Below, in pieces: positions 1 to 11,022 of a stretch of DNA of 14,019 bases. The stretch is from the IMG/VR virus record IMGVR_UViG_2698536552_000015. One strand, 5' to 3'. Numbering within the stretch: the stretch's first letter is position 1; each line of letters opens with the position of its first letter. The DNA comes from a virus. Taxonomy: Duplodnaviria; Heunggongvirae; Uroviricota; Caudoviricetes. The notes under the pieces were generated by a model, which saw only the letters and a list, made by a program, of their open reading frames with translations, was not told the origin of the DNA and searched no databases. The position numbers and the translations under genes were made by a program.

Positions 1-1236
1 CTACGATAACCGCGCATTCAACATGGCTACCTGTTCGTCGTTCATGTCATCAATCCACATACCGTAAATTTCATACACCATCTGCGCAGTTTCATGCCCC
101 ATCTGGCTGGCTATAAACGCCGGGTTCGCTCCTGCCGTCAACAGCCAGCAGGCAAAAGTATGCCGCGTATGGTACGGATTACGGCGGCGAATACCAGCAC
201 GTTTTACTGCTGCATTCCATCTCGCACCCAAACTGCTTACCGAGTAATAAGGTTTCTGTTTTCCGTTACACACTCTGGGCATGAAAACAAAATGCAGTTT
301 TTGCTTTTCGGTTCTGCCGTACTCCCGATGATAAAAAGTGATTTCGCTTTTGCGATGATGCCCGGTCAGTTTGTATTGCTCCTTCAGTGCTTCAAGAGCA
401 GGCTGCAGTAGTGTTACCGTCCGGATCCCCGCATTTGTTTTTGGGGGACCGAACATATCCAGTATCGTCAGGTTTCTTCTGACATTCACAACTCCCTTCT
501 CGAAATCCACATCCTCCCACGCCAGAGCAGCCAGTTCCCCGTGACGAAGCCCGGAGTATACGGCAAATTTCCACAAGTTCTGGCTCTGTCCTTTTTCACT
601 TTCCATTAATGCATTGAATTCTGTTTTAGATAACGGGTCAGGCTTTATTCTGTTTCTCTGTAATTTCTTTACTCCTTCAAATGGTTTGGTTGATATAAAT
701 CCCGACTGATACGCAAAACGTAACAACGAACAGAGCAGGGCGATATAGTTATCAACTGTGCGCACGGTTCTTCCTTTTTTGTTGGATCTTGGATTATCCA
801 GGTAAAGCGTTTCTCCATGCAGCAGTTCATTCCGGTAGTTTAAGATATCGCTATAACGAATATGCGATATCGGAGTACTCTCACAAATTATTATCCTGAG
901 TGTTTTTAATTGTGATTTCGTTTTCTTCATTGTGTTTGTTGTTAACTCTGTTTCTTTAATTTTTGTCCAGATATCACAAAGCTCCCCGAACGTTTTTATG
1001 ACCCTCGTTGTCACCATTTTTGCCCCAGTGCTGGACTGGGGAAAACGTCTTAAATACTCAAACTCACCGGAATTGATTTCATGAACTATCAACGCTCTTA
1101 AATTCCCGGCTTTTTTAATGTTACTGTTAGTAACCTCCCAGCCTTTCAATGTTTCCCGACATCGTTTTCCTCGAAACATGAACCAGATGCGAATGTATTT
1201 ACCTCGAATCTCGACACCTGTTGGTAATTTAGACAT
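1..1236 (-). CDS. intR: Rac-type prophage tyrosine integrase (411 aa), complete; stop codon is the first three bases of the window
   Basis: ORF track 1..1236 (-). Protein begins MSKLPTGVEIRGKYIRIWFMFRGKRCRETLKGW and ends in a tyrosine-recombinase C-terminal region (…NPYHTRHTFACWLLTAGANPAFIASQMGHETAQMVYEIY). Matches IntR of Rac as recalled. xis stop lies 1 nt upstream. Confidence 0.95.
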   Translation of the reverse strand: MSKLPTGVEIRGKYIRIWFMFRGKRCRETLKGWEVTNSNIKKAGNLRALIVHEINSGEFEYLRRFPQSSTGAKMVTTRVIKTFGELCDIWTKIKETELTTNTMKKTKSQLKTLRIIICESTPISHIRYSDILNYRNELLHGETLYLDNPRSNKKGRTVRTVDNYIALLCSLLRFAYQSGFISTKPFEGVKKLQRNRIKPDPLSKTEFNALMESEKGQSQNLWKFAVYSGLRHGELAALAWEDVDFEKGVVNVRRNLTILDMFGPPKTNAGIRTVTLLQPALEALKEQYKLTGHHRKSEITFYHREYGRTEKQKLHFVFMPRVCNGKQKPYYSVSSLGARWNAAVKRAGIRRRNPYHTRHTFACWLLTAGANPAFIASQMGHETAQMVYEIYGMWIDDMNDEQVAMLNARLS

Positions 1237-1237
1237 A

Positions 1238-1453
1238 TCATGAGTCTTTGATAAACTGATTTATCTTTGGATAGTTATACCAGATAATCCCTCGCTTACT
1301 GTCTGGCTTCCCTAAAGGAGATACTCGTTTGAAGTGGAAGCCTTCCACCCAACAGTTCTGGCGGTATGCTTCAATTTGTCTGGCCCCCAGACCAGTGCGA
1401 AGCATCAGGCCGTATTCAACCATCCACTCTTCATTAAAGATTACTTGTGCCAT
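1238..1453 (-). CDS. xisR: Excisionase-like protein (71 aa)
   Basis: In-frame ATG at 1453 within ORF 1238..1477 gives [71 protein letters not shown], which I recall as YdaQ/XisR. Sits immediately upstream of int (xis-int arrangement). The longer start at 1477 is possible. Confidence 0.85.
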
Positions 1454-1552
1454 CGCATCACCTCTGGCAGGCGCCAATGTTAGACTTAAATTGACGCCCG
1501 ATGTTGATTATTAATAATCAGCTATGAAGTTTTAATTTGAATACAATGCAAT

Positions 1553-1741
1553 TCACGAGGACTGAAGTTTCTCGCAATTAAAATTTATCAGTTTTACTTT
1601 CTGCTCTCTGGAAACGCCTGCTTCTTTTTTACCTGAGAGCATTTTTTCGCATTCTGATTTCGTTAGTTTAGATTTTGAATATCTTGTCCAGTTAGTAGGA
1701 GTGCCACCTTCCTTTTCAATAGTGGCGGTAATTTTATACAT
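1553..1741 (-). CDS. ydaC: Small Rac prophage protein YdaC/RcbA-like (62 aa)
   Basis: ATG at 1741 (MYKITATIEKEGGTPTNWTRYSKSKLTKSECEKMLSGKKEAGVSREQKVKLINFNCEKLQSS) inside ORF 1553..1813. The start overlaps the 3' end of the ralR frame by 8 nt. Confidence 0.7.
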   Translation of the reverse strand: MYKITATIEKEGGTPTNWTRYSKSKLTKSECEKMLSGKKEAGVSREQKVKLINFNCEKLQSS

Positions 1742-1928
1742 GAACACCTCCATTATTATTTCCAGTGGTTCGTTTATTTCATCGTTCGAGTGCTTCTTTT
1801 TCACTTCCACCATAACCGGTTCGGGATTCGCATCCGTTACACTTCGCTCGGTAATATCCTGAAATGGCTTTCACCGTTACTGATGGACAACCACAAAATG
1901 GACATGGTTTAACATTGTCATATCTCAT
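1734..1928 (-). pseudogene. ralR: ralR-like gene (restriction alleviation / type I toxin) with an in-frame TGA at codon 50; 49-aa product if terminated, 64 codons if read through
   Basis: Hand translation of the minus strand from ATG 1926-1928: MRYDNVKPCPFCGCPSVTVKAISGYYRAKCNGCESRTGYGGSEKEALER, then TGA (plus 1779-1781), then in frame NKRTTGNNNGGVHV and TAA at 1734-1736. Absent from the ORF track because it is under 60 aa. The in-frame tail matches the RalR C-terminus as I recall it. Confidence 0.55.
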
Positions 1929-1956
1929 AATTTTTCTCATAAAAATATTTCAAGTT

Positions 1957-1975
1957 GGCGGTGCATTACACCGCC
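1957..1975. other. Perfect 7-bp inverted repeat GGCGGTG-catta-CACCGCC between the recT stop and ralR start
   Basis: Read directly from the sequence. On the minus strand the U-rich tract starts about 9 nt after the stem, so this is not a canonical intrinsic terminator. Confidence 0.3.
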
Positions 1976-1983
1976 AGGCTGAA

Positions 1984-2793
1984 TTATTCCTCTGAATTAT
2001 CGATTACACTGTATTCCCCGGTTAATACAGAGGAATCTGCAGGATCGATTGTCAGTGGTTCCTTTTCATCCATTGATACTGCACGCTGGATCTCAATTGA
2101 TACGGGCAGATATTTGAACAGGCGACGAATAGCCGTTTTCTTTGCCATTTCTTCCCAGTGAGTTACCCACGGCCCGTTATTACCAGCTTTACTCTGGCTG
2201 CGCACCAGCTCAATCTGTTTGCGCGTCATAACTTCAAACTGAGTACCTCCGTCTTTCAGTCTTGCGACAGCATAGACGTGGGTAACAGGGGCATCTTCGT
2301 TTTCTCCTGGGCGGTGTATTAACTTTTCATCAAGGCCAAATTCGAAATTAAACTCGTCACCTTCACGGACAACACGGGCTGACAGGCTGGCGATTTGACC
2401 TGAACGGCGAGCCAGATCAATCATGCCGCGATAGCCAATGATTAGCTGAACGTTTTTTTTACCGCTCTTTTCGTTTTTATTACCAAAAGGCAGTAAATAT
2501 GCATGACCGAGGGCGCTACCGGGCTCAAGTCCGAGCTGTGAACACTGTACGATTGCACTGACAAAACTCATAGTGTCACAGTTTCCTAACGCCGGAACTT
2601 TACGAATTTCTGTGGTGGCGATACGGATCATACGTTCAGCCGTCATATGGCGTGGAAGAGCTGCTGCCAGTTGCTCTTTCATTGATGGCTGGTTAATAAA
2701 ACTAATCACGTCGTTATTTTTAATTGCTGCTGGTGCACGGTTTCCCTGAGTTTTTTGCAGATCGGCTTTTGCGATTGGTGGTTGCTTAGTCAT
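1984..2793 (-). CDS. recT: RecT single-strand annealing recombinase (269 aa)
   Basis: ORF 1984..2850; internal ATG at 2793 gives [41 protein letters not shown]…SVIDNSEE, recognised as RecT. AAGGAA Shine-Dalgarno 7 nt upstream. The start overlaps the recE stop by 8 nt. Confidence 0.95.
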
Positions 2794-5386
2794 TTGCATA
2801 TTCCTTAGCCCAGCGGGGCAGTGATAACGTCTTAATAGCTGGCCATTCATCGGTATTGAGGCAGTCAGCCAGGGTTCGCAGATTGCGGTGATATTCCAGC
2901 TGACCTGCCAGTTTTGCTTCTTCGCCCATCATGAAAATTTCAACCGGATAACGTCCGCATTCAATAGTTGTGCTGGCAACCAGAAAAACGAAAGTTGGCT
3001 GCACTCCAAACTGTGCTTCATAACCGTCACTGTAGAATGCATCCTGAACGTGATAGCGGTAGTCGTAATAAGCGGTTTTGAATCGTTGAATATCCGCCGT
3101 AGTTTTCACGTCCATGATCCAGTGAAATTCAGGGATAATTTTGTCCGGACGGCACCGACACAAAATTGCTGTTTCAGGATCTTCCCAGTAAATTGATGAT
3201 TCAGCGTGTCCGGCGCTTTCAACAAGCCATTGCCCCAGCGGCAAAGCCATAACGCTCTGATACATGAGTTCAATTTTCCGGCCTTCTTCGGCAGTGATAA
3301 CCGTTTTTCCTGTGCTTGCGCATTCCCTCAGAAACGCTTTCTCTTCTTCTTTTCCGGAGTTTGTCCGGCGGTTAAATTCAGGTGCTACGATAAAGCGGTT
3401 ACTGAATTCTTCCGGCTCAAGTACCCGGCAGTGGAAAGCGGTTCCTAAATCGAGCGTTTTTGTCTTTGTGGTGTCCACGGGGGCATTTTTACGCCACAAA
3501 TACAGTGCCGGAGTATCAGCAATGTCATCGAGCTGAGACTTACTGACACCGGGACCCGCGTGGTAATTCTCATTCGAAATTCCGTAATAAATACCTGGCT
3601 CTATGTCTTCTACGATTACGGGATCTGCGACTTCGCCAGTTTCATCACTGCAATCGCGATGCGGATCGCTGCCAGCATTCTCATTGTGCGGATGTTCAGC
3701 GCCTTCCATTTCCTCCGGATCATTTTCCTTAGCTTCAACCTGACTCTCTTCATCGAATGTTTCCTGGTATGTTGCGTCGCCCATCACCGCACCACAGTCA
3801 GGGCAGTTATCCCCGCCAGTCTGGCCGCAGGCATTGCAGGCTATTTCCGGTTCCTGTTGCACTACTGGCTCAGGTTGATTCATATCCGGGCTGGTTTTTT
3901 CCGTTTCTGGCTGGTTCTGGTACACACAATCGCGAGTCTGGATCCCCTTTACCCATTTCGGATCGTTCGGGTCGCTAATTCCGTCAACAAATTCACCACG
4001 TGATGCAGCAAGCAATTTATCGGCATCGACAGGATTTTTTGATGGAATGTTTTTCCGGGCTTCATGGAGTTCTGCCCGCAGTTCCTGATATTTCGCATCA
4101 ACAGAATTTACCTGTGACTGAGCATCCAGCGGCTGCGTGTCCTGATGATGTTCAGTTGCGTCCGGTTCCATTGTTTCAGCCTCTCCCTGTTCAACTGCCG
4201 TTGTTCCAGATGGTTGCGGTTTTTCTTCATCATCCTGTTTTCCTTCTTCTGTTACTCGCTGCGGCATCGGGGCAGAGGAGCGACCGCAGGCAATATCCAC
4301 GATTTCCGGATCAGGGTTGGCATGATCGGTTTCAGTCAGTACTTTGTTCAGATATTCAGTGACGTGCGCGGGGATGACCTCGATCCCAATTGGTGCTTCT
4401 TTTACGGACGCAACCACGATGGCGCGGGAATAATCCAGCCCGCCAGGCATGGTGATGAATTTGTCGCGGAAAACAGAAAAGGGCGGTTTATTTTCAGCGA
4501 TAATTTCCTCAATGCGTTTAGCGTGTGCCGGATGAAGGTTATAGATGTCCAGATCCATTGAACGGGCCAGTACGCCAGTGGCTACGTCCCGCGCCAGTGA
4601 CGTCAGATCGTGTACGAAACCTTCGCCGCGATCGGTGAGGTTTCCGCCGCCAGCATTAGCACCGGAAGCCGTGCGAGTGATGTGTGAAACACGATTACCC
4701 TTCATCCACTCTTTTGTCAGCAGTCCTCGATCGGTGTAGTCAGCGTTCAGGTATGCTTCGAAAAAAGCAGTTATCAGTCCCAGGTTTGAATTACCAGGAT
4801 TAGGGAAAACTTTGTCAGTGTCACGAACCAGTTTGTGGAGTTCGCGAATTTCCAGCGGGTCGAGCAGGCTGGTTTTGTGGGAAACAGCCAGGGCAGTAAC
4901 AGCCGGTAGTTCTTCAGCCCGAGCAATGTGTAATGCCTGGAGTCCGTCGCGTGAAACGTGCGTTACCGGTTTTTCGCTGCCGTGTTGAGCAAGCCAACGA
5001 ATGGGCAGTTCCTGGCCAGAAATTGGGAGTAGCATATTCTCCTCAATCTCAGTCATGTCTTCGCCGTTGACGTTGGTATTGCCTTGATAGTGAGCGTTGT
5101 CTGGTGCTGCTCCCGGTTTTAGTTCCCATGTCATGGAGTCTTTGCTGAGTTGATAGCGTTCACTCCAGGTAAAATCGATCTCACCTTCAGCGGGCAGGTC
5201 ATTAACGACAGGAAAATTCGTGGCAACAGCTTTAAAATAGCTGCTCAGTTTTTTACCTGACTTAACGATCAGGTAGTCCAGAGTGGCACAGGTCGATTCA
5301 AAATCGTTGCTTGCCCACAGGACGACGTCAGGTTCACCGGATGATTTTTTCGCTTTCCGTAACAGGAAGAGTGGTTTTGTGCTCAT
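2786..5386 (-). CDS. recE: Exodeoxyribonuclease VIII RecE (866 aa)
   Basis: ORF track 2786..5386 (-), 866 aa, [33 protein letters not shown]… with an acidic low-complexity middle and a C-terminal nuclease domain. Matches RecE of Rac in length and sequence as recalled. Confidence 0.95.
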
Positions 5387-5459
5387 TGTTTTTTAACCTC
5401 AACTCAGATTAAAATTCGTTTTGTTCAGTGAATGATCTTGCCGGATACACACTGTTCAT

Positions 5460-5480
5460 AGCCTGCGCCATACGCAGGCT
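5460..5480. other. 8-bp perfect inverted repeat AGCCTGCG-ccata-CGCAGGCT in the racC-recE intergenic region
   Basis: Read directly from the sequence. Lies 7 nt downstream of the racC stop on the minus-strand transcript and is followed on the plus strand by ATTTCTTTCA. Candidate RNA stem-loop or weak terminator. Confidence 0.3.
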
Positions 5481-5487
5481 ATTTCTT

Positions 5488-5763
5488 TCAGATTTCACCT
5501 TTTAATTTCATTGCAATTAGAGTTGCCAGAAATTCGGCTTTTTTTTCTGCGGGCAGATTCTTTCCGATATGCACCAGGCACATTTTTTTGACACCTTCAT
5601 CAAGTGTTTTTACGTTGCCTGATGGACCATCGATATCAACCACAGTGAATGGGGTTTCTTTATTTTCTGTTTTAATTACGTAGCCAATGCGCTTTCCTTC
5701 CAGATTCACCTCGTGAACAATGTCATCGGTAGTTACAACAGTGGCTTCATAATTGGTAATCAT
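5488..5763 (-). CDS. racC: Rac prophage protein RacC (91 aa)
   Basis: Internal ATG at 5763 in ORF 5488..5811 gives MITNYEATVVTTDDIVHEVNLEGKRIGYVIKTENKETPF…KLKGEI. AAGGAGAAA Shine-Dalgarno upstream. Confidence 0.85.
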   Translation of the reverse strand: MITNYEATVVTTDDIVHEVNLEGKRIGYVIKTENKETPFTVVDIDGPSGNVKTLDEGVKKMCLVHIGKNLPAEKKAEFLATLIAMKLKGEI

Positions 5764-5837
5764 GTTTTTCTCCTTAATTAAGGTTGAGCGAATACCTGCC
5801 ATTTCTGGCATAAATTCAGTTTCGAATAGTCAATTAA

Positions 5838-6008
5838 TTAAAGTTCATGTGCCATCTGGTCTTTTTCGGCACAAGCTTCACTGCAATATTTTCTCGGTTC
5901 GTCTTTTGATAAAATCCCGTGCATGAAGTGAAGCATTCTTTCAATAGCTTTGCTTTCTTCAACGTCTTTTTTGCAAAGGTGGTAAGCACATTTTATTTTC
6001 TTAGTCAT
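5838..6008 (-). CDS. ydaE: Small Cys-rich protein YdaE (56 aa)
   Basis: Hand-translated minus-strand [59 protein letters not shown]. Not in the ORF track (under 60 aa). Its ATG overlaps the kilR stop as ATGA. Confidence 0.75.
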   Translation of the reverse strand: MTKKIKCAYHLCKKDVEESKAIERMLHFMHGILSKDEPRKYCSEACAEKDQMAHEL

Positions 6009-6229
6009 CACCATGACTCCGCCTTTACAGGTAAACCATCACGACCGAGGAAGACTTTAATCATGCGGTCAGTAATGCATGTTTTTGTGGTCAGGTTACG
6101 AATATATAGTTTTCGCTTTTTAATATTGTTTGCCGAGGCAATATATGTCCGGCCTTCATGAAGAACATAATCGCCAGGAGTCACACACTGACGTGGTATT
6201 TCATCAGTTCCGAAGTGATGTGCAATCAT
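6008..6229 (-). CDS. kilR: Killing protein KilR, FtsZ-targeting cell-division inhibitor (73 aa)
   Basis: ATG at 6229 in ORF 6008..6241 gives [77 protein letters not shown] Shine-Dalgarno 6 nt upstream. Confidence 0.85.
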
Positions 6230-6410
6230 AATTATCTCCATTTTTACAAATGAACTTTGTTGATGCGGTGCCTGGTGCCTCCAGGTGACTGCAACCAGTT
6301 AACAATTACAGTCGGCTTTCCCACCCAAACCAATAAGGACTAACATGACTTTTAACTGTGCCACGTGCGCTTAGCCGCATTCACCGCATCACAAAATTCA
6401 CTTTAAAAAG

Positions 6411-6452
6411 GGCGGACATCAGCCGAACTTCAAGAAAAAAACTGATGCCGCC
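6411..6452. promoter_or_regulatory. Imperfect inverted repeat GGCGGACATCAG-N19-CTGATGCCGCC in the kilR/sieB divergent intergenic region
   Basis: Read directly: arms at 6411-6422 and 6442-6452 are complementary apart from a 1-nt bulge. Candidate protein-binding site or RNA structure near the presumed early-left promoter. Confidence 0.3.
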
Positions 6453-6670
6453 AGGACTACACACAGCAATGTCGTTATTTACAACCGGAGGCGCACTCCC
6501 ACCATTTAAATTTAACAGACAAGACCGACTCTTTATGGATATCGGAAATGCGCCTTCGTGTTGTGCCCGGTTTTATTTCACCACCTCCGGGCTTCGGTGG
6601 TCTCGGCTATACCCCTACAGCGAGAGCTTGTGTTAACATTTCAATACCCTTACAGTTGAGAGTTATTGAT

Positions 6671-7159
6671 ATGTTGGATGTATTTACTCCATTGTTGAAA
6701 CTTTTTGCTAACGAGCCACTCGAAATACTTATGTATACGATTATCATTTTTGGTCTCACTCTCTGGCTGATACCGAAAGAGTTTACTGTCGCATTCAATG
6801 CTTATACTGAAATACCTTGGCTCTTTCAGATTATCGTTTTTGCCTTTTCTTTCGTGGTCGCCATTTCCTTCTCAAGATTGCGAGCACATATTCAAAAGCA
6901 TTATTCATTACTACCAGAGCAACGAGTATTGCTTCGTTTATCTGAGAAAGAAATCGCTGTATTTAAAGATTTCCTTAAAACAGGAAATCTTATTATCACT
7001 TCTCCTTGCCGTAACCCGGTTATGAAAAAATTAGAACGGAAGGGCATCATTCAACATCAGAGTGATAGCGCAAACTGTTCTTATTATCTCGTCACCGAAA
7101 AATACTCCCATTTTATGAAGTTATTCTGGAACAGCAGGAGTAGACGTTTTAATCGTTAG
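6671..7159 (+). CDS. sieB: Superinfection exclusion protein SieB (162 aa), membrane protein
   Basis: ATG at 6671 in ORF 6548..7159 gives MLDVFTPLLKLFANEPLEILMYTIIIFGLTLWLIPKEF… with hydrophobic N-terminal segments. Matches SieB as recalled. Confidence 0.85.
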   Translation: MLDVFTPLLKLFANEPLEILMYTIIIFGLTLWLIPKEFTVAFNAYTEIPWLFQIIVFAFSFVVAISFSRLRAHIQKHYSLLPEQRVLLRLSEKEIAVFKDFLKTGNLIITSPCRNPVMKKLERKGIIQHQSDSANCSYYLVTEKYSHFMKLFWNSRSRRFNR

Positions 7160-7311
7160 CTTACTGTGTGCTTCTCCAACCATCGGCGCGCACCAGTTTC
7201 GGTTTTAAATGTTTTGCTTTTGGTATACGTCATGGCAGTGAACGTTCCATCCTGGTTGGGGAACACGCCGCACACCAGGGATTCGTTGTTGCCGAGGTCG
7301 ATTTTTTGCAT
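7156..7311 (-). CDS. ydaF: Small protein YdaF-like (51 aa)
   Basis: Hand-translated minus-strand ORF MQKIDLGNNESLVCGVFPNQDGTFTAMTYTKSKTFKTETGARRWLEKHTVS (ATG 7309-7311, TAA 7156-7158). Not in the ORF track. Its 3' end overlaps the sieB stop convergently by 4 nt. Assignment to ydaF rests on length and position. Confidence 0.55.
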   Translation of the reverse strand: MQKIDLGNNESLVCGVFPNQDGTFTAMTYTKSKTFKTETGARRWLEKHTVS

Positions 7312-7321
7312 TTTGCGAATC

Positions 7322-7456
7322 TCACATCTTGTTGCTGTGTATAGCGACTTCTGCCTGCCAGAGATCCCAGTCGTTGCTGCGTAAAGCCTGCACAGCCTGG
7401 TTGTAAGTGATACCGCAACAATCCATCAAATACTGAACTACTTCGTAATGCACCAT
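7322..7456 (-). CDS. ydaG: Small protein YdaG-like (44 aa)
   Basis: Internal ATG at 7456 in ORF 7322..7504 gives MVHYEVVQYLMDCCGITYNQAVQALRSNDWDLWQAEVAIHSNKM. GGGGAGAG Shine-Dalgarno 6 nt upstream. Confidence 0.6.
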   Translation of the reverse strand: MVHYEVVQYLMDCCGITYNQAVQALRSNDWDLWQAEVAIHSNKM

Positions 7457-7624
7457 CTTATCTCTCCCCTTAACGCCGGGTGGCGGAACTGAAACCTGCT
7501 GCACTGCAAAATCTGAACCCTGCCGTCATGTTCATACGCCTCGGGCTGGCTACTTAACCCCTGACCACTGCCTGGTAACTCGAAGTATTGCCCTGCGTTC
7601 TGTGGGGCGGGGTGGGTTGGTAGG

Positions 7625-7680
7625 TATATAATGTACTTTGTGTTCATTGATGTAAAGTACTATAAGTACATTTTGTGTGT
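7625..7680. promoter_or_regulatory. Cluster of GTAC-core repeats with promoter-like hexamers downstream of the racR stop; candidate operator/promoter region (OL-like)
   Basis: Plus-strand TATATAAT at 7625-7632; ATGTACT at 7631-7637; AAGTACT at 7655-7661; AGTACAT at 7665-7671; TTTGTGT follows two of the copies. On the minus strand, TTTACA-N17/19-CATTAT/TTATAT could drive ydaG-ydaF. Confidence 0.3.
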
Positions 7681-7746
7681 AAAAAAATGAGATGGGATAA
7701 AGTGAAGCACAAACCCGGAGGGGGACGCTACCGGATTTATGCTGGT

Positions 7747-8184
7747 TTAAGAGGCTTTTTGTTTTTTCTTTCGTGCTAGCTCTTCGTAAATTGCATTGTA
7801 CTTCTGTTTTTTCTCCTCAAGAGTTTTTAAAAGTTCATCTGTCTCACTGTCAGGGAGCTCGTCCAGAAGGTCAATGATGATTTTTTGTCTTGGATTTAAC
7901 TCCTGATAGAAACGTACCTGTCCACTTTCTTCTGTATCCTCTCCCAAAAGATAGGTTGGTGTTGTTCCAATGAGTGTTGCTAATTCCCTTAATTTCTCTC
8001 GGCGAGGAATTGTTTCGCCATTAAACCATTTGCTAACCGCTTTTGGTGTTAATTTCATTCGACGGGCAATTTCTGCCTGCCTTCCATGTTGTTCATAACC
8101 AGCGTTTTCACAGGCTAGCGCAAGCCTACTGGCGAACTCTTTACGCGCTTTATCTTCATGAACCATAAGTTCAATGATATTCAC
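7747..8184 (-). CDS. racR: Prophage repressor RacR (XRE/cI-type helix-turn-helix), 145 aa from GTG 8184 or 139 aa from ATG 8166
   Basis: ORF 7747..8184: MNIIELMVHEDKARKEFASRLALACENAGYEQHGRQAEIARRMKLTPKAVSKWFNGETIPRREKLRELATLIG… (HTH), acidic/basic C-terminus. No clear Shine-Dalgarno, consistent with a short-leader or leaderless repressor mRNA. Confidence 0.85.
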   Translation of the reverse strand: MNIIELMVHEDKARKEFASRLALACENAGYEQHGRQAEIARRMKLTPKAVSKWFNGETIPRREKLRELATLIGTTPTYLLGEDTEESGQVRFYQELNPRQKIIIDLLDELPDSETDELLKTLEEKKQKYNAIYEELARKKKQKAS

Positions 8185-8186
8185 TC

Positions 8187-8221
8187 TTGAATGTACTGTC
8201 AGTTCTGTTATAGCATGTACT
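8187..8221 (+). promoter_or_regulatory. Candidate ydaS promoter (TTGAAT-N16-TATAGC) flanked by two direct ATGTACT repeats; putative RacR operator region (OR-like)
   Basis: -35 TTGAAT at 8187-8192, -10 TATAGC at 8209-8214, ATGTACT at 8191-8197 and 8215-8221. Lies between divergent racR and ydaS. Confidence 0.4.
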
Positions 8222-8245
8222 CAAAGTTCACATTGTGAGGGTGAT

Positions 8246-8500
8246 ATGAACCAGAAAACACTTGAAGATGTAATCAAAACTGTTCGCGTTTCTGTTGTGG
8301 CCGACGTTTGTGGTGTCAGCCAAAGAGCAATCTACAAATGGATGGATAACGGAAAATTGCCTCGCACAGAATATACCGGCGAAACAAATTACGCTGAAAA
8401 AATCGCTCATGCATCAAACGGATTATTTTCTGCTGATGTAATTTTAACTATTGGCAGAAATAAAACTACTACGAAAAAGCTGATGGGAGTTGATTCATGA
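8246..8500 (+). CDS. ydaS: Cro-like helix-turn-helix protein YdaS (84 aa)
   Basis: ATG at 8246 preceded by GAGG gives MNQKTLEDVIKTVRVSVVADVCGVSQRAIYKWMDNGKLPRTEY… with an HTH motif. Divergent from racR. Its stop overlaps the ydaT start as ATGA. Confidence 0.8.
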   Translation: MNQKTLEDVIKTVRVSVVADVCGVSQRAIYKWMDNGKLPRTEYTGETNYAEKIAHASNGLFSADVILTIGRNKTTTKKLMGVDS

Positions 8501-8919
8501 AAATCAAGCATGAGCACATCGAGTCAGTGTTGTTAGCCCTGGCAGCCGAAAAAGGGCAGGCATGGGTAGCCAATGCCATTACTGAAGAATATCTGCGCCA
8601 GGGGGGCGGCGAATTGCCCCTGGTACCAGGCAAGGACTGGAATAATCAGCAGAATATCTATCACCGTTGGTTGAAAGGTGAAACGAAAACGCAAAGAGAA
8701 AAAATTCAGAAGCTGATCCCAGCAATTCTGGCAATCCTTCCGCGCGAGCTGCGTCACCGACTCTGCATCNNNNNNNNNNNNNNNNNNNNNNNNNNNNNNN
8801 NNNNNNNNNNNNNNNNNNNNNNNNNNNNNNNNNNNNNNNNNNNNNNNNNNNNNNNNNNNNNNNNNNNNNNNNNNNNNNNNNNNNNNNNNNNNNNNNNNNN
8901 NNNNNNNNNNNNNNNNNNN
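8497..8919 (+). CDS. ydaT: YdaT-like protein; N-terminal 91 codons visible (8497..8769), 3' end hidden in an N run (end inferred from a recalled length of about 140 aa)
   Basis: MKIKHEHIESVLLALAAEKGQAWVANAITEEYLRQGGGELPLVPGKDWNNQQNIYHRWLKGETKTQREKIQKLIPAILAILPRELRHRLCI then N run. GGGAG Shine-Dalgarno upstream. Confidence 0.7.
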
Positions 8920-9030
8920 NNNNNNNNNNNNNNNNNNNNNNNNNNNNNNNNNNNNNNNNNNNNNNNNNNNNNNNNNNNNNNNNNNNNNNNNNNNNNNNNN
9001 NNNNNNNNNNNNNNNNNNNNNNNNNNNNNN
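8770..9030. other. N-masked run (261 nt), no sequence information
   Basis: Run of n in the input; hides the ydaT 3' end and ydaU 5' end. Confidence 0.99.
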
Positions 9031-9814
9031 TACCTGGCTGACACCATGCATTTGTCAGCAGAGGAGCATGGTGCGTATTTGTTGCTGATGTTCAATTACT
9101 GGCAAACAGGAAAGCCAATACCTAAAAACAGGCTGGCAAAAATTGCCCGTCTGACTAACGAGCGATGGGCTGATGTTGAACCATCCTTGCAGGAGTTTTT
9201 TTGCGATAACGGCGAGGAATGGGTGCATCTTCGGATTGAGGAAGATCTGGCATCANNNNNNNNNNNNNNNNNNNNNNNNNNNNNNNNNNNNNNNNNNNNN
9301 NNNNNNNNNNNNNNNNNNNNNNNNNNNNNNNNNNNNNNNNNNNNNNNNNNNNNNNNNNNNNNNNNNNNNNNNNNNNNNNNNNNNNNNNNNNNNNNNNNNN
9401 NNNNNNNNNNNNNNNNNNNNNNNNNNNNNNNNNNNNNNNNNNNNNNNNNNNNNNNNNNNNNNNNNNNNNNNNNNNNNNNNNNNNNNNNNNNNNNNNNNNN
9501 NNNNNAAAAAGTTTGACCCTCTGGATATTGCTTTGCCGAACTGGATTTCTGTCTCGCTTTGGCGTGAGTGGGTTGAATTTCGCCAGGCATTGCGAAAACC
9601 GATTCGAACGGAGCAGGGCGCTAACGGGGCGATACGGGAGCTGGAAAAATTCCGCCAGCAGGGTTTTTCACCTGAGCAGGTGATTCGACACAGCATCGCC
9701 AATGAATACCAGGGCTTGTTCGCGCCGAAAGGTGTTCGACCTGAGACGTTACTCCGACAGGTTAACACCGTCTCGTTACCGGATAGTGCGATCCCGCCAG
9801 GCTTCAGGGGGTAA
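8957..9814 (+). CDS. ydaU: DUF1376-type replication-associated protein YdaU-like; start inferred inside an N run, interrupted by a second N run
   Basis: Visible segments: 9031-9255 YLADTMHLSAEEHGAYLLLMFNYWQTGKPIPKNRLAKIARLTNERWADVEPSLQEFFCDNGEEWVHLRIEEDLAS (DUF1376-like motif), and 9506-9814 KKFDPLDIALPNWISVSLWREWVEFRQALRKPIRTEQGANGAIRELEKFRQQGFSPEQVIRHSIANEYQGLF…PPGFRG*. The two segments are in different frames (+1 across the 250-nt N run). Confidence 0.65.
9256..9505. other. N-masked run (250 nt)
   Basis: Run of n in the input, inside ydaU. Confidence 0.99.
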
Positions 9815-9820
9815 CTGACC

Positions 9821-11022
9821 ATGAAAAATATTGCGACAGGCGACGTTCTTGAACGTATCCGCAGACTGGCCCCGTCACATGTAACCGCGCCATTCAAGAC
9901 GGTAGCGGAGTGGCGCGAGTGGCAACTTTCCGAAGGCCAGAAACGTTGTGAGGAGATCAACCGTCAGAATCGTCAGTTGCGGGTGGAAAAAATTCTGAAT
10001 CGCTCTGGCATCCAGCCATTGCACCGCAAATGCTCGTTTTCGAATTACCAGGTGCAGAACGAAGCGCAGCGATACGCGTTGAGTCAGGCGAAATCCATCG
10101 CTGATGAACTGATGACCGGGTGTACAAATTTTGCGTTCAGCGGAAAACCTGGTACCGGGAAGAACCACTTAGCGGCAGCTATCGGGAATCGCCTGCTGAA
10201 AGACGGTCAGACAGTGATTGTGGTTACCGTGGCTGATGTTATGAGTGNNNNNNNNNNNNNNNNNNNNNNNNNNNNNNNNNNNNNNNNNNNNNNNNNNNNN
10301 NNNNNNNNNNNNNNNNNNNNNNNNNNNNNNNNNNNNNNNNNNNNNNNNNNNNNNNNNNNNNNNNNNNNNNNNNNNNNNNNNNNNNNNNNNNNNNNNNNNN
10401 NNNNNNNNNNNNNNNNNNNNNNNNNNNNNNNNNNNNNNNNNNNNNNNNNNNNNNNNNNNNNNNNNNNNNNNNNNNNNNNNNNNNNNNNNNNNNNNNNNNN
10501 NGAACGACGGCCAGCGATACGCGTTAAGCCAGGCGAAATCCATCGCCGATGAACNNNNNNNNNNNNNNNNNNNNNNNNNNNNNNNNNNNNNNNNNNNNNN
10601 NNNNNNNNNNNNNNNNNNNNNNNNNNNNNNNNNNNNNNNNNNNNNNNNNNNNNNNNNNNNNNNNNNNNNNNNNNNNNNNNNNNNNNNNNNNNNNNNNNNN
10701 NNNNNNNNNNNNNNNNNNNNNNNNNNNNNNNNNNNNNNNNNNNNNNNNNNNNNNNNNNNNNNNNNNNNNNNNNNNNNNNNNNNNNNNNNNNNNNNNNNNN
10801 NNNNNNNNNNNNNNNNNNNNGGTGGTGCTGCACCAGATTGTTGATCGCCGGACAGCGTCGATGCGCAGCGTGGGGATGCTGACAAACCTGAACTATGAGG
10901 TGATGAAAACATTGCTCGGCGAGCGGGTGATGGATCGCATGGTCATGAACGGCGGGCGCTGGGTGAATTTTAACTGGGAGAGCTGGCGTCCGAATGTTAG
11001 CCATTCGAGGGTTGTTAAGTAG
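9821..11022 (+). CDS. ydaV: DnaC-like replication/helicase-loader protein YdaV region with an AAA+ Walker A motif; about 450 nt longer than expected and containing a diverged second copy of an internal segment (one enlarged gene, or a 5' fragment plus a second full copy)
   Basis: N-terminal 142 codons visible (9821-10246): MKNIATGDVLERIRRLAPSHVTAPFKTVAEW…FSGKPGTGKNHLAAAIGNRLLKDGQTVIVVTVADVMS. C-terminal segment 10822-11022: VVLHQIVDRRTASMRSVGMLTNLNYEVMKTLLGERVMDRMVMNGGRWVNFNWESWRPNVSHSRVVK*. The island 10502-10554 repeats residues around 79-96. Frames differ between segments (2, 3, 1). Confidence 0.7.
10248..10501. other. N-masked run (254 nt)
   Basis: Run of n in the input, inside the ydaV region. 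Confidence 0.99.
10555..10820. other. N-masked run (266 nt)
   Basis: Run of n in the input, inside the ydaV region. Confidence 0.99.

What the first reader, a model, noticed from the sequence alone, without database searches (positions are those of the whole stretch)
8185..8245. racR/ydaS divergent control region with direct ATGTACT repeats on both sides of the ydaS -10
Seen in sequence: TTGAAT-N16-TATAGC with ATGTACT copies at 8191-8197 (overlapping the -35) and 8215-8221 (at the predicted start site). RacR is known to repress ydaS/ydaT, whose expression is toxic, so these repeats are the natural candidate operator half-sites. racR itself has no Shine-Dalgarno and may be leaderless.
Basis: partly seen in the sequence, partly recalled or inferred. 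Interest (0 to 1): 0.4.

Follow-up and report, generated by a model that had tools for sequence, protein, structure and literature searches.

The report
HK022-type prophage operators, not RacR sites

Summary
The sequence observation is correct. ATGTACT lies at 8191-8197 and 8215-8221, flanking a PR-like promoter (TTGAAT-N16-TATAGC).

The repeats are the left halves of two 17-bp imperfect palindromes, ATGWACY-N3-AGTWCAT: OR2 at 8191-8207 and OR1 at 8215-8231. Three more sites exist. OR3 (8158-8174) is centred on the repressor start codon. OL1 (7631-7647) and OL2 (7655-7671) overlap a leftward PL-like promoter.

The genes are not K-12 racR/ydaS. An 868-bp immunity cassette (7623-8490) replaces the K-12 one. 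It is homologous to phage HK022 cI-OR-cro and OL, whose operators are annotated at the same relative positions.

The layout (24 and 33 bp centre spacing, OR3 over the ATG) recurs in about 25 relatives with this register, from Escherichia to Pseudomonas; five Pasteurellaceae loci keep the spacing further upstream. An 82.5%-identical allele has no change in any of the 60 core operator bases.

K-12 RacR binds a different motif (TAGGC-n3-GCCTA), which is absent here.

A leaderless repressor mRNA is supported by a conserved -10 seven bases before the ATG.

The one unusual feature is the repressor. It has an HK022-like DNA-binding head, a DicA-like helical tail and no RecA-cleavable S24 domain.

Verdict: a new member of a known kind, of low interest.

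The parts
7623..8490 (.). Swapped immunity cassette (OL/PL, repressor, OR, cro-like gene) inside an otherwise K-12-like Rac prophage
   Evidence: blastn against K-12 Rac: window 1-7622 is 98.7% identical and identity resumes at 8491. There is no similarity in between. The cassette is present in 1047 of 5426 complete E. coli genomes.
7628..7656 (-). PL-like leftward promoter: -35 TTTACA (7651-7656) and -10 CATTAT (7628-7633)
   Evidence: Found by the promoter scan, 9 of 12 matches. It is the positional homologue of HK022's annotated pL. TGTAAA is invariant in the 6-phage alignment.
7631..7647 (.). OL1 operator, ATGTACTTTGTGTTCAT
   Evidence: 15.7 bits. Homologous to the HK022 oL site at 2201-2215.
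7655..7671 (.). OL2 operator, AAGTACTATAAGTACAT, 24 bp centre to centre from OL1
   Evidence: 18.4 bits. Homologous to the HK022 oL site at 2225-2239.
7747..8166 (-). Repressor gene, 139 aa. Residues 1-75 are an HK022-CI-like helix-turn-helix head. Residues about 88-139 are a DicA-like helical tail. There is no S24 peptidase domain.
   Evidence: RefSeq CDS in strain 1428. Pfam finds HTH_3 only. 47.5% identity to HK022 CI. Recognition helix TPKAVSKWFNGE against TPKAISKWFNGE in HK022. DicA match with E=5e-15. HK022 CI carries Peptidase_S24.
8158..8174 (.). OR3 operator, ATGAACCATAAGTTCAA, centred on the repressor start codon (CAT at 8164-8166)
   Evidence: 24.5 bits. Identical in position and nearly identical in sequence to HK022 oR3 at 3000-3014. 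Found at -8 from the ATG in most relatives.
8174..8202 (-). PRM-like promoter for a leaderless repressor mRNA: -35 CTGACA (8197-8202) and -10 TATCAT (8174-8179). The ATG at 8166 follows 7 nt later.
   Evidence: Promoter scan, 10 of 12 matches. The columns AT.ATA at 8174-8179 are strongly conserved in 26 unique relatives.
8187..8216 (+). PR-like rightward promoter: -35 TTGAAT (8187-8192) and -10 either TATAGC (8209-8214, preceded by TG at 8206-8207) or TAGCAT (8211-8216)
   Evidence: Read from the sequence. Aligns with HK022 pR, TTGACT and CATAAT. The identical sequence occurs in the plaque-forming phage Tritos (PMC9928086). The scan tool did not flag it, because TATAGC lacks T at position 6.
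8191..8207 (.). OR2 operator, ATGTACTGTCAGTTCTG.
   Evidence: 14.0 bits. Homologue of HK022 oR2 at 3033-3047. Found at -41 from the ATG across the family.
8215..8231 (.). OR1 operator, ATGTACTCAAAGTTCAC.
   Evidence: 17.0 bits. Homologue of HK022 oR1 at 3057-3071. Found at -65 from the ATG across the family.
8246..8500 (+). cro-like gene, 84 aa, with Shine-Dalgarno GAGG at 8237-8240
   Evidence: RefSeq CDS. 62% identical to HK022 Cro, E=2e-34. Not a member of YdaS_toxin.
8490..8507 (.). YdaT-box TTGATTCATGAAAATCAA at the right edge of the cassette, over the ydaT start codon
   Evidence: Exact match to TTGATT-N6-AATCAA. This site was footprinted for CP-933P YdaT (PMC9986795) and acts as an activating YdaT-box in K-12 Rac (PMC11879457).

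Best explanation
The region is the right operator (OR) of a lambdoid immunity switch of the HK022 type, carried by a Rac-family prophage. The two ATGTACT copies are the left half-sites of OR2 and OR1.

Inferred mechanism:
1. Dimers of the 139-aa repressor read 17-bp imperfect palindromes (ATGWACY-N3-AGTWCAT) through an HK022-CI-like helix-turn-helix head.
2. Repressor on OR2 sits between and over the -35 and -10 of PR. Repressor on OR1 sits over the -10 edge and the start site. The two sites are 24 bp apart centre to centre, and together they shut off rightward early transcription (cro-like gene, ydaT, ydaU, ydaV and beyond).
3. OL1 and OL2, with the same 24-bp spacing, cover the -10 and -35 of a leftward promoter. 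They shut off the ydaG-ydaF-kilR-racC-recET direction.
4. OR3 is centred on the first base of a leaderless repressor mRNA, so it should give negative autoregulation at high repressor levels.
5. The Cro homologue is expected to use the same sites in the lytic direction.

Shown here: the sites, their statistics, their homology to annotated HK022 operators, their conserved geometry, and purifying selection on their cores.

Inferred, not shown: actual binding, the order of occupancy, cooperativity and OL-OR looping, the transcription start sites, and the effect of OR2-bound repressor on the repressor's own promoter. The -35 of that promoter lies inside OR2.
For: 1. Homology.
- The cassette matches HK022 OL at 82% and the region from the cI N-terminus through OR to cro at 70%.
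- GenBank X16093.1 annotates oL (two sites), oR (three sites), pL and pR at the equivalent positions. HK75 annotates oR1-3 and oL1-3 likewise.
- HK022 CI is reported to bind adjacent OR and OL operators cooperatively and to loop OL to OR (PMC8053113).

2. Proteins.
- The repressor head is 47-73% identical to HK022-type CI heads, with a near-identical recognition helix.
- Cro is 62% identical to HK022 Cro.

3. Geometry.
- In 7 phage loci and about 30 genome loci, sites lie at -65, -41 and -8 from the repressor ATG.
- Salmonella relatives with the same short tail keep this layout and also have an OL pair.

4. Dyad symmetry. The position-frequency matrix correlates 0.90 with its own reverse complement in this register, and at most 0.24 in shifted registers.

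5. Selection. Alleles L051 and L052 differ from the window at 116 of 661 positions. They have 0 changes in the 60 core half-site positions, 3 in the 15 spacer positions and 2 at outermost positions. Most Tritos, B2C and HCM-22C-2 differences within operators also fall in spacers; the exceptions are OL1 position 11 and OL2 position 7.

6. Independent weight-matrix scan and pattern statistics.

7. The identical repressor and OR sit in Tritos, a plaque-forming temperate phage. Its CI is expressed 24-fold above background in lysogens (PMC9928086).
Against: - No binding or transcription data exist for this allele.
- The repressor lacks the S24 C-terminal domain present in HK022 CI, whose cooperativity and looping have been shown. 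Those properties cannot simply be transferred.
- PR has a weak and ambiguous -10. TATAGC lacks the conserved final T. One natural allele (B2C) mutates the A that the alternative register needs.
- OR2 overlaps the -35 of the predicted repressor promoter (centre near -33). How repressor synthesis is maintained in the lysogen is therefore unexplained.
- No equivalents of HK022 OL3 or OFR were found.
- The relatives were collected by repressor similarity. Their shared layout is partly shared ancestry rather than independent evidence.
Confidence: 0.85

Rival explanations
1. K-12-style RacR/YdaS control. The protein is RacR, it represses a toxic ydaS-ydaT operon, and ATGTACT is the RacR recognition unit.
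For: The genes sit in the same slot of the Rac prophage, between ydaG and ydaT. The K-12 region has a parallel architecture: dyads with a 3-bp spacer, O3 over the ATG, and a leaderless promoter (PMC9638921).
Against: - The proteins are unrelated beyond the helix-turn-helix.
- The RacR motif TAGGC-n3-GCCTA is absent from the window. The only match has 2 mismatches and is at chance level.
- That motif is present six times around K-12 racR.
- The HK022-type motif is absent from K-12 Rac.
- PGAP does not name these genes racR or ydaS.
Confidence: 0.02
2. The functional unit is the 7-bp direct repeat. Monomers, or a head-to-tail oligomer, bind ATGTACT copies phased 24 bp apart, and the right half-sites are incidental.
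For: The two left halves are identical while the right halves are poorer matches (AGTTCTG and AGTTCAC). For K-12 RacR, a 7-bp monomer-site logo has also been proposed (PMC9638921).
Against: - Across relatives the right half (AGTTC) of OR2 is better conserved than its left half. In OR2 the left half is often TGAACT, GGAACT or AAAACT.
- The pooled matrix is strongly self-complementary only in the 17-bp register.
- OL2 and OR3 are near-perfect dyads.
- There are no changes in either half in the 82.5%-identical allele.
Confidence: 0.06
3. The sites are relics of an HK022-like switch in a decaying cryptic prophage, and this truncated-looking repressor no longer uses them.
For: The repressor lacks the S24 domain. 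K-12 Rac is cryptic. PR has a weak -10, and one allele carries a further -10 change.
Against: - The short-tailed architecture is a conserved full-length family. It includes 62-65% identical Salmonella proteins with the same operators.
- The tail is homologous to the Qin prophage repressor DicA over residues 30-137.
- The operator cores are under purifying selection.
- The identical module is in the live phage Tritos, whose CI is expressed in the lysogen.
Confidence: 0.05
4. A chance repeat with no function.
For: A 7-mer repeat in 79 bp occurs in 17% of shuffles.
Against: (gapped repeat, P = 0.0002).
Confidence: 0.01

Closest known systems
Phage HK022 immunity region (cI, cro, OR1-3, OL1-3, pR, pL). 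GenBank X16093.1 and AF069308; also HK75 and the lambda-HK022 hybrid O276.
   Same: - The DNA is homologous (70-82%).
- The operator consensus is the same.
- There are three OR sites with 24 and 33 bp spacing, and OR3 lies over the cI ATG.
- The OL1/OL2 pair overlaps pL.
- pR is at the same position.
- The CI head and Cro are homologous.
   Different: - The repressor tail is DicA-like instead of an S24 autopeptidase.
- No OL3 or OFR site was found.
- Downstream is ydaT (a cII analogue) with a YdaT-box, instead of HK022 cII.
- OR1 uses TGTACT rather than TGAACC.
- The PR -10 is weaker.
E. coli K-12 Rac racR-ydaS intergenic region (RacR operators O1-O3, leaderless PracR3; PMC9638921)
   Same: - It occupies the same prophage slot.
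- It has the same logic: divergent repressor and cro-like genes, dyads with a 3-bp spacer, the third operator's spacer over the repressor ATG, and a leaderless repressor mRNA.
- An operator pair also lies on the far side of the repressor gene.
   Different: - The proteins are unrelated and the recognition sequence is different, so the two are presumably heteroimmune.
- The K-12 intergenic region is 123 bp against 79 bp here.
Phage lambda OR/OL switch (established textbook knowledge)
   Same: - 17-bp pseudo-palindromic operators.
- OR1-OR2 are 24 bp centre to centre.
- Divergent PR and PRM promoters.
- A leaderless cI mRNA.
- OL controls PL.
   Different: - OR3 is 33 bp from OR2 and centred on +1 of the repressor transcript.
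- OR2 overlaps the -35 of the repressor promoter rather than abutting it, so lambda-style activation of PRM by OR2-bound repressor cannot be assumed.
CP-933P paaR2/ydaS/ydaT switch (PMC8630535, PMC9986795)
   Same: - A short repressor without S24.
- A leaderless repressor gene.
- ydaT acts as the cII analogue, with a TTGATT-N6-AATCAA box.
- OL-like sites are present.
   Different: The operator sequence is different (GTTTAGTAA palindromes, four of them). A toxin-antitoxin pair lies downstream of the repressor.
DicA/DicC of the Qin prophage
   Same: The repressor's overall architecture and its C-terminal tail are homologous (29% over 112 residues, E=5e-15; NCBIfam DicA E=2e-15).
   Different: It scores below the DicA family cut-off (56.8 against 101 bits). 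The DNA-binding head is of the HK022 type, and so are the operators.

Membership tests
HK022-type lambdoid immunity operators | 15-17-bp imperfect palindrome, TGWACY-N3-AGTWCA | tested here: met
   Five sites in the window. A weight matrix trained only on relatives ranks them as the top ten scores.
HK022-type lambdoid immunity operators | Three OR sites with centres 24 bp (OR1-OR2) and 33 bp (OR2-OR3) apart, with OR3 over the repressor start codon | tested here: met
   Window sites start at 8215, 8191 and 8158. The same offsets occur in HK022, HK75, Tritos, the Klebsiella, Citrobacter and Providencia phages, and in about 25 genome loci.
HK022-type lambdoid immunity operators | An OL1/OL2 pair 24 bp apart overlapping the -10 and -35 of pL | tested here: met
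   Sites at 7631 and 7655 over CATTAT and TTTACA.
HK022-type lambdoid immunity operators | Additional sites: OL3 (53 bp from OL2) and OFR (downstream of cro) | tested here: not met
   No site scoring 10 of 14 or more at those positions in the window. They are present in HK022, HK75, the Klebsiella phage and Omnitron (OL3), and in HK022 and HK75 (OFR).
HK022-type lambdoid immunity operators | Repressor DNA-binding domain and Cro homologous to those of HK022 | tested here: met
   CI head 47.5-59% identical, with recognition helix TPKAVSKWFNGE against TPKAISKWFNGE. Cro is 62% identical.
HK022-type lambdoid immunity operators | Repressor carries a LexA-like S24 self-cleavage and oligomerisation domain | tested here: not met
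   No Peptidase_S24 hit in the window protein. HK022 CI has one at residues 101-223.
HK022-type lambdoid immunity operators | Repressor and Cro physically bind the sites, and binding is cooperative | not testable with these tools
   Needs EMSA or footprinting. Reported only for HK022 CI itself (PMC8053113, citing Carlson and Little 1993).
K-12 RacR/YdaS module | Repressor orthologous to RacR | tested here: not met
   Only 12 of 33 identities, confined to the helix-turn-helix. PGAP gives a generic name.
K-12 RacR/YdaS module | Divergent gene belongs to YdaS_toxin (PF15943) | tested here: not met
   K-12 YdaS hits PF15943 at 2.6e-31. The window protein does not hit it.
K-12 RacR/YdaS module | Operators of the form (T/A)TAGGC-n3-GCCTA(T/A) | tested here: not met
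   One match with 2 mismatches in the window, at chance level, against six sites around K-12 racR.
K-12 RacR/YdaS module | Location in the Rac prophage between ydaG and ydaT | tested here: met
   The flanks are 98-99% identical to K-12 Rac.
DicA subfamily repressors (NCBIfam NF007257) | Score above the curated cut-off of 101 bits | tested here: not met
   56.8 bits, E=2e-15, aligned over residues 29-137. It is homologous but not a member.

The most novel reading that the evidence does not exclude
The repressor is a natural head-and-tail chimera. It joins an HK022-type DNA-reading domain to a DicA-type helical tail and has no RecA-cleavable domain. It still keeps the operator geometry (24 and 33 bp spacing, plus an OL pair about 500-580 bp away) associated in HK022 with cooperative binding and looping.

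If so, roughly one in five complete E. coli genomes would carry a prophage switch with two properties:
- It would be blind to direct SOS cleavage, and would be induced by some other route, or not at all.
- It would share immunity specificity with HK022-type phages, so the resident cryptic prophage would protect against them and HK022 CI could silence it.
Probability: 0.3. Interest if true: 0.4.

Novelty: new member of a known kind. Interest (0 to 1): 0.2.

Why it matters
It corrects an easy annotation trap. "Rac prophage" does not imply "RacR". Among complete E. coli genomes, this cassette (1047) is about as common as the K-12 racR-ydaS cassette (1085).

Results on RacR essentiality, on YdaS/YdaT toxicity and on cross-talk with the restriction-modification C protein therefore cannot be transferred to these strains.

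The analysis gives a precise operator and promoter map for a module that RefSeq labels only as helix-turn-helix proteins. The same module controls the live phage Tritos of the Crohn's-associated strain LF82.

The switch itself is textbook in kind, so the scientific surprise is small.

Tried and rejected
- **K-12 orthology.** I compared the repressor and cro-like proteins with K-12 RacR and YdaS. They are not orthologues.
- **Other operator motifs.** The RacR operator motif is absent from the window. The CP-933P PaaR2 consensus GTTTAGTAA is unrelated to the sites found.
- **OL3 and OFR.** I looked for HK022 OL3 and OFR equivalents and found none.
- **Solved structures.** A PDB sequence search gave only the P22 C2 head for the repressor and nothing for Cro. 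An AlphaFold model (pLDDT 80.5) shows a five-helix head, a disordered linker at 77-87 and a helical hairpin at 92-138. Foldseek hits are dominated by the head. Full-length-like hits (SinR, SPC32H Rep, DdrO) are suggestive but weak, with E around 1e-2. I draw no conclusion about oligomeric state or induction route.
- **Literature.** The primary HK022 operator papers (Carlson and Little 1993) are not held in the library. I rely on GenBank annotations and on a secondary description. No paper found treats this allele.
- **PR -10 register.** I could not resolve it. L051 favours 8211-8216 and B2C argues against it.
- **My first pattern.** TGWACYNNNWGTWC was partly post hoc, so I replaced it with an independently trained matrix.

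Full report
**Observation.**
- ATGTACT lies at 8191-8197 and 8215-8221.
- TTGAAT lies at 8187-8192 and TATAGC at 8209-8214, with a 16-nt spacer between them.
- The repressor gene starts at CAT 8164-8166 on the minus strand, with no Shine-Dalgarno sequence.
- The divergent gene starts at 8246, after GAGG.

**Is it more than chance?** A bare 7-mer repeat in 79 bp is weak evidence, since 17% of shuffles contain one. The rest of the evidence is stronger.
- The repeat extends to ATGTACT-N3-AGTTC in both copies, which has P about 0.0002.
- All four exact ATGTACT copies in the 14-kb window cluster on the two sides of the repressor gene.

**What the genes are.** The window is a Rac prophage running intR through recET, kilR, sieB, ydaF and ydaG, then the repressor, the cro-like gene, ydaT, ydaU and ydaV. 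It is 99.9% identical to E. coli strain 1428.
- Compared with K-12 Rac, identity is 98.7% up to 7622 and resumes at 8491. The 868 bp in between are unrelated.
- The 139-aa repressor shares only a 33-residue helix-turn-helix stretch with RacR.
- The 84-aa divergent protein is not a YdaS_toxin family member.
- The names racR and ydaS are therefore positional only.
- This cassette is in 1047 of 5426 complete E. coli genomes. The K-12 cassette is in 1085.

**Where the cassette comes from.** blastn and tblastn against phages show homology to the immunity region of phage HK022.
- OL matches at 82%.
- The region from the cI head through OR to cro matches at 70%.
- The CI head is 47.5% identical and Cro is 62% identical.
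- GenBank X16093.1 annotates HK022 oL (two sites), oR (three sites), pL and pR. The HK75 record annotates oR1-3, oL1-3 and OFR by similarity.

Reading those sites gives:

| HK022 site | Sequence |
|---|---|
| oL | TGTACTTAAAGTTCA |
| oL | AGTACCAATAGTACA |
| oR3, over the cI ATG | TGAACCATAAGTTCA |
| oR2 | TGTACTATCAGTTCC |
| oR1 | TGAACCATAAGTTCA |

The window has the same five sites at the same relative positions:

| Window site | Coordinates | Sequence |
|---|---|---|
| OL1 | 7631-7647 | ATGTACTTTGTGTTCAT |
| OL2 | 7655-7671 | AAGTACTATAAGTACAT |
| OR3 | 8158-8174 | ATGAACCATAAGTTCAA |
| OR2 | 8191-8207 | ATGTACTGTCAGTTCTG |
| OR1 | 8215-8231 | ATGTACTCAAAGTTCAC |

**Tests of the operator assignment.**
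1. A matrix trained on 48 OR sites from other phages and genera, with none from this allele group and no OL sites, ranks these five places as the ten best scores on both strands. The better-strand scores run from 24.5 down to 14.0 bits. The next real hit scores 8.3. Shuffle maxima had mean 10.5 and maximum 15.7.
2. In 7 phage loci and about 30 genome loci found through the repressor head, sites lie at -65, -41 and -8 from the repressor ATG. The hosts include Escherichia, Klebsiella, Enterobacter, Kluyvera, Pantoea, Pectobacterium, Providencia, Xenorhabdus, Rouxiella and a Pseudomonas. Pasteurellaceae keep the 24 and 33 bp spacing but shifted about 19 bp upstream.
3. The pooled matrix correlates 0.90 with its reverse complement in the 17-bp register and at most 0.24 in shifted registers. 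The unit is therefore a dyad, as expected for a dimeric helix-turn-helix protein, and not a direct repeat.
4. An 82.5%-identical allele (L051 and L052) has 116 differences in 661 bp. None falls in the 60 core half-site positions, 3 fall in the 15 spacer positions and 2 at outermost positions. At 17.5% divergence about 10 core changes would be expected, and 0.825^60 is about 1e-5.
5. Reciprocally, the HK022-type pattern is absent from K-12 Rac, and the RacR motif is absent here.

**Promoters.**
- *Repressor promoter.* The scan tool finds CTGACA-17-TATCAT on the minus strand at 8202..8174 (10 of 12 matches). It ends 7 nt before the repressor ATG. The -10 columns are among the best conserved in the family alignment. 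The K-12 racR (PracR3), paaR2 and lambda cI genes are also leaderless.
- *Leftward promoter.* The scan also finds TTTACA-17-CATTAT at 7656..7628. This is the positional homologue of HK022 pL, and OL2 and OL1 overlap it.
The scan does not flag it, because TATAGC lacks the final T. There is a TG at 8206-8207, which could act as an extended -10. An overlapping register, TAGCAT at 8211-8216, is also possible. Natural variants do not settle which register is used. The identical PR sequence works in the plaque-forming phage Tritos.

**Mechanism (inferred).**
- Repressor on OR1 and OR2 blocks PR.
- Repressor on OL1 and OL2 blocks PL.
- OR3 is centred on +1 of the leaderless transcript, so it should auto-repress.
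- Cro uses the same sites.
- HK022 CI is reported to bind adjacent sites cooperatively and to loop OL to OR (PMC8053113).
- Whether that holds here is open, because the repressor tail differs. Also unexplained is that OR2 overlaps the -35 of the repressor's own promoter (centre about -33), so lambda-like self-activation cannot be assumed.

**The repressor.**
- Residues 1-75 align with HK022-type CI heads.
- After TYLLG the S24 domain is replaced by a roughly 65-residue tail. This tail is homologous to the tail of DicA from the Qin prophage (E=5e-15). The NCBIfam DicA model scores 56.8 bits, below its cut-off.
- HK022 CI has Peptidase_S24. The window protein does not.
- Full-length short-tailed homologues exist in E. 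coli (88-100% identity) and Salmonella (62-65%), with the same operators.
- The AlphaFold model shows a head, a disordered linker and a helical hairpin. Fold matches do not resolve the function of the tail.
- RecA-stimulated self-cleavage is therefore not expected.

**Comparison and verdict.** This is a new allele of the HK022-type immunity switch in a Rac-family prophage. It has the same logic as the lambda, K-12 RacR and CP-933P switches.
- The operator idea and the leaderless idea are supported.
- The RacR/YdaS framing is not supported.
- Novelty: a new member of a known kind.
- Interest is low. Its practical value is for annotation and for anyone extrapolating K-12 RacR biology to other strains.

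Noticed in passing
window 8490-8507: There is an exact YdaT-box, TTGATTCATGAAAATCAA, with 0 mismatches to TTGATT-N6-AATCAA. It straddles the cro stop codon and the ydaT start codon, exactly where K-12 homology resumes (8491). The left edge of the swapped cassette (7622/7623) is at the predicted PL start. Both cassette boundaries therefore coincide with regulatory landmarks.
   Followed up: partly
L002 8631-8643 and 8656-8668 (NC_000913.3 about 1,419,630-1,419,667): K-12 Rac has two RacR-type dyads to the left of racR: TAGGTAATGCCTA and TAGGCTATGCCTA, 25 bp apart. They form an OL-like pair. The papers I read discuss only the sites in the racR-ydaS intergenic region.
   Followed up: no
L048 3053-3720 and 3812-3852; L049 likewise: In Salmonella prophages with the same short-tailed repressor, a higB/higA-like pair sits between the repressor gene and the OL operator pair. 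This resembles the paaA2-parE2 arrangement of CP-933P.
   Followed up: no
L005 3074-3400 (phage Tritos, OV696610.1); window 8174-8500: The deposited Tritos 'Cro' CDS (108 aa) starts inside OR3, upstream of PR. The 84-aa start at window 8246 has a Shine-Dalgarno sequence and is the one conserved with HK022 Cro. The longer call is probably a start-codon error. The metagenomic repressor calls P0015, P0001 and P0003 are similarly over-extended at the N-terminus, through the operators.
   Followed up: partly
L029, L035, L037, L039-L042, L044 (Pasteurellaceae): Relatives in Haemophilus, Volucribacter and Gallibacterium keep the 24 and 33 bp operator spacing. The triplet lies about 19 bp further from the repressor ATG, so OR3 does not cover the start codon there.
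   Followed up: no
window 8770-9030, 9256-9505, 10248-10501, 10555-10820: Four masked runs of N interrupt ydaT, ydaU, ydaV and the genes downstream. The corresponding sequence can be read in L001.
   Followed up: no
window 7750-7942 (repressor residues about 76-139): The repressor tail is a disordered linker followed by a helical hairpin (AlphaFold). It is homologous to the DicA tail. According to PMC9928086, Tritos also expresses an ImmA/IrrE-type metallopeptidase. This might hint at a protease-based induction route, which I did not examine.
   Followed up: partly
L053 (strain B2C), equivalent to window 8212: One natural allele has A to G inside the PR -10 region (TATAGC to TATGGC). This may be a promoter-down change in a resident prophage.
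   Followed up: no
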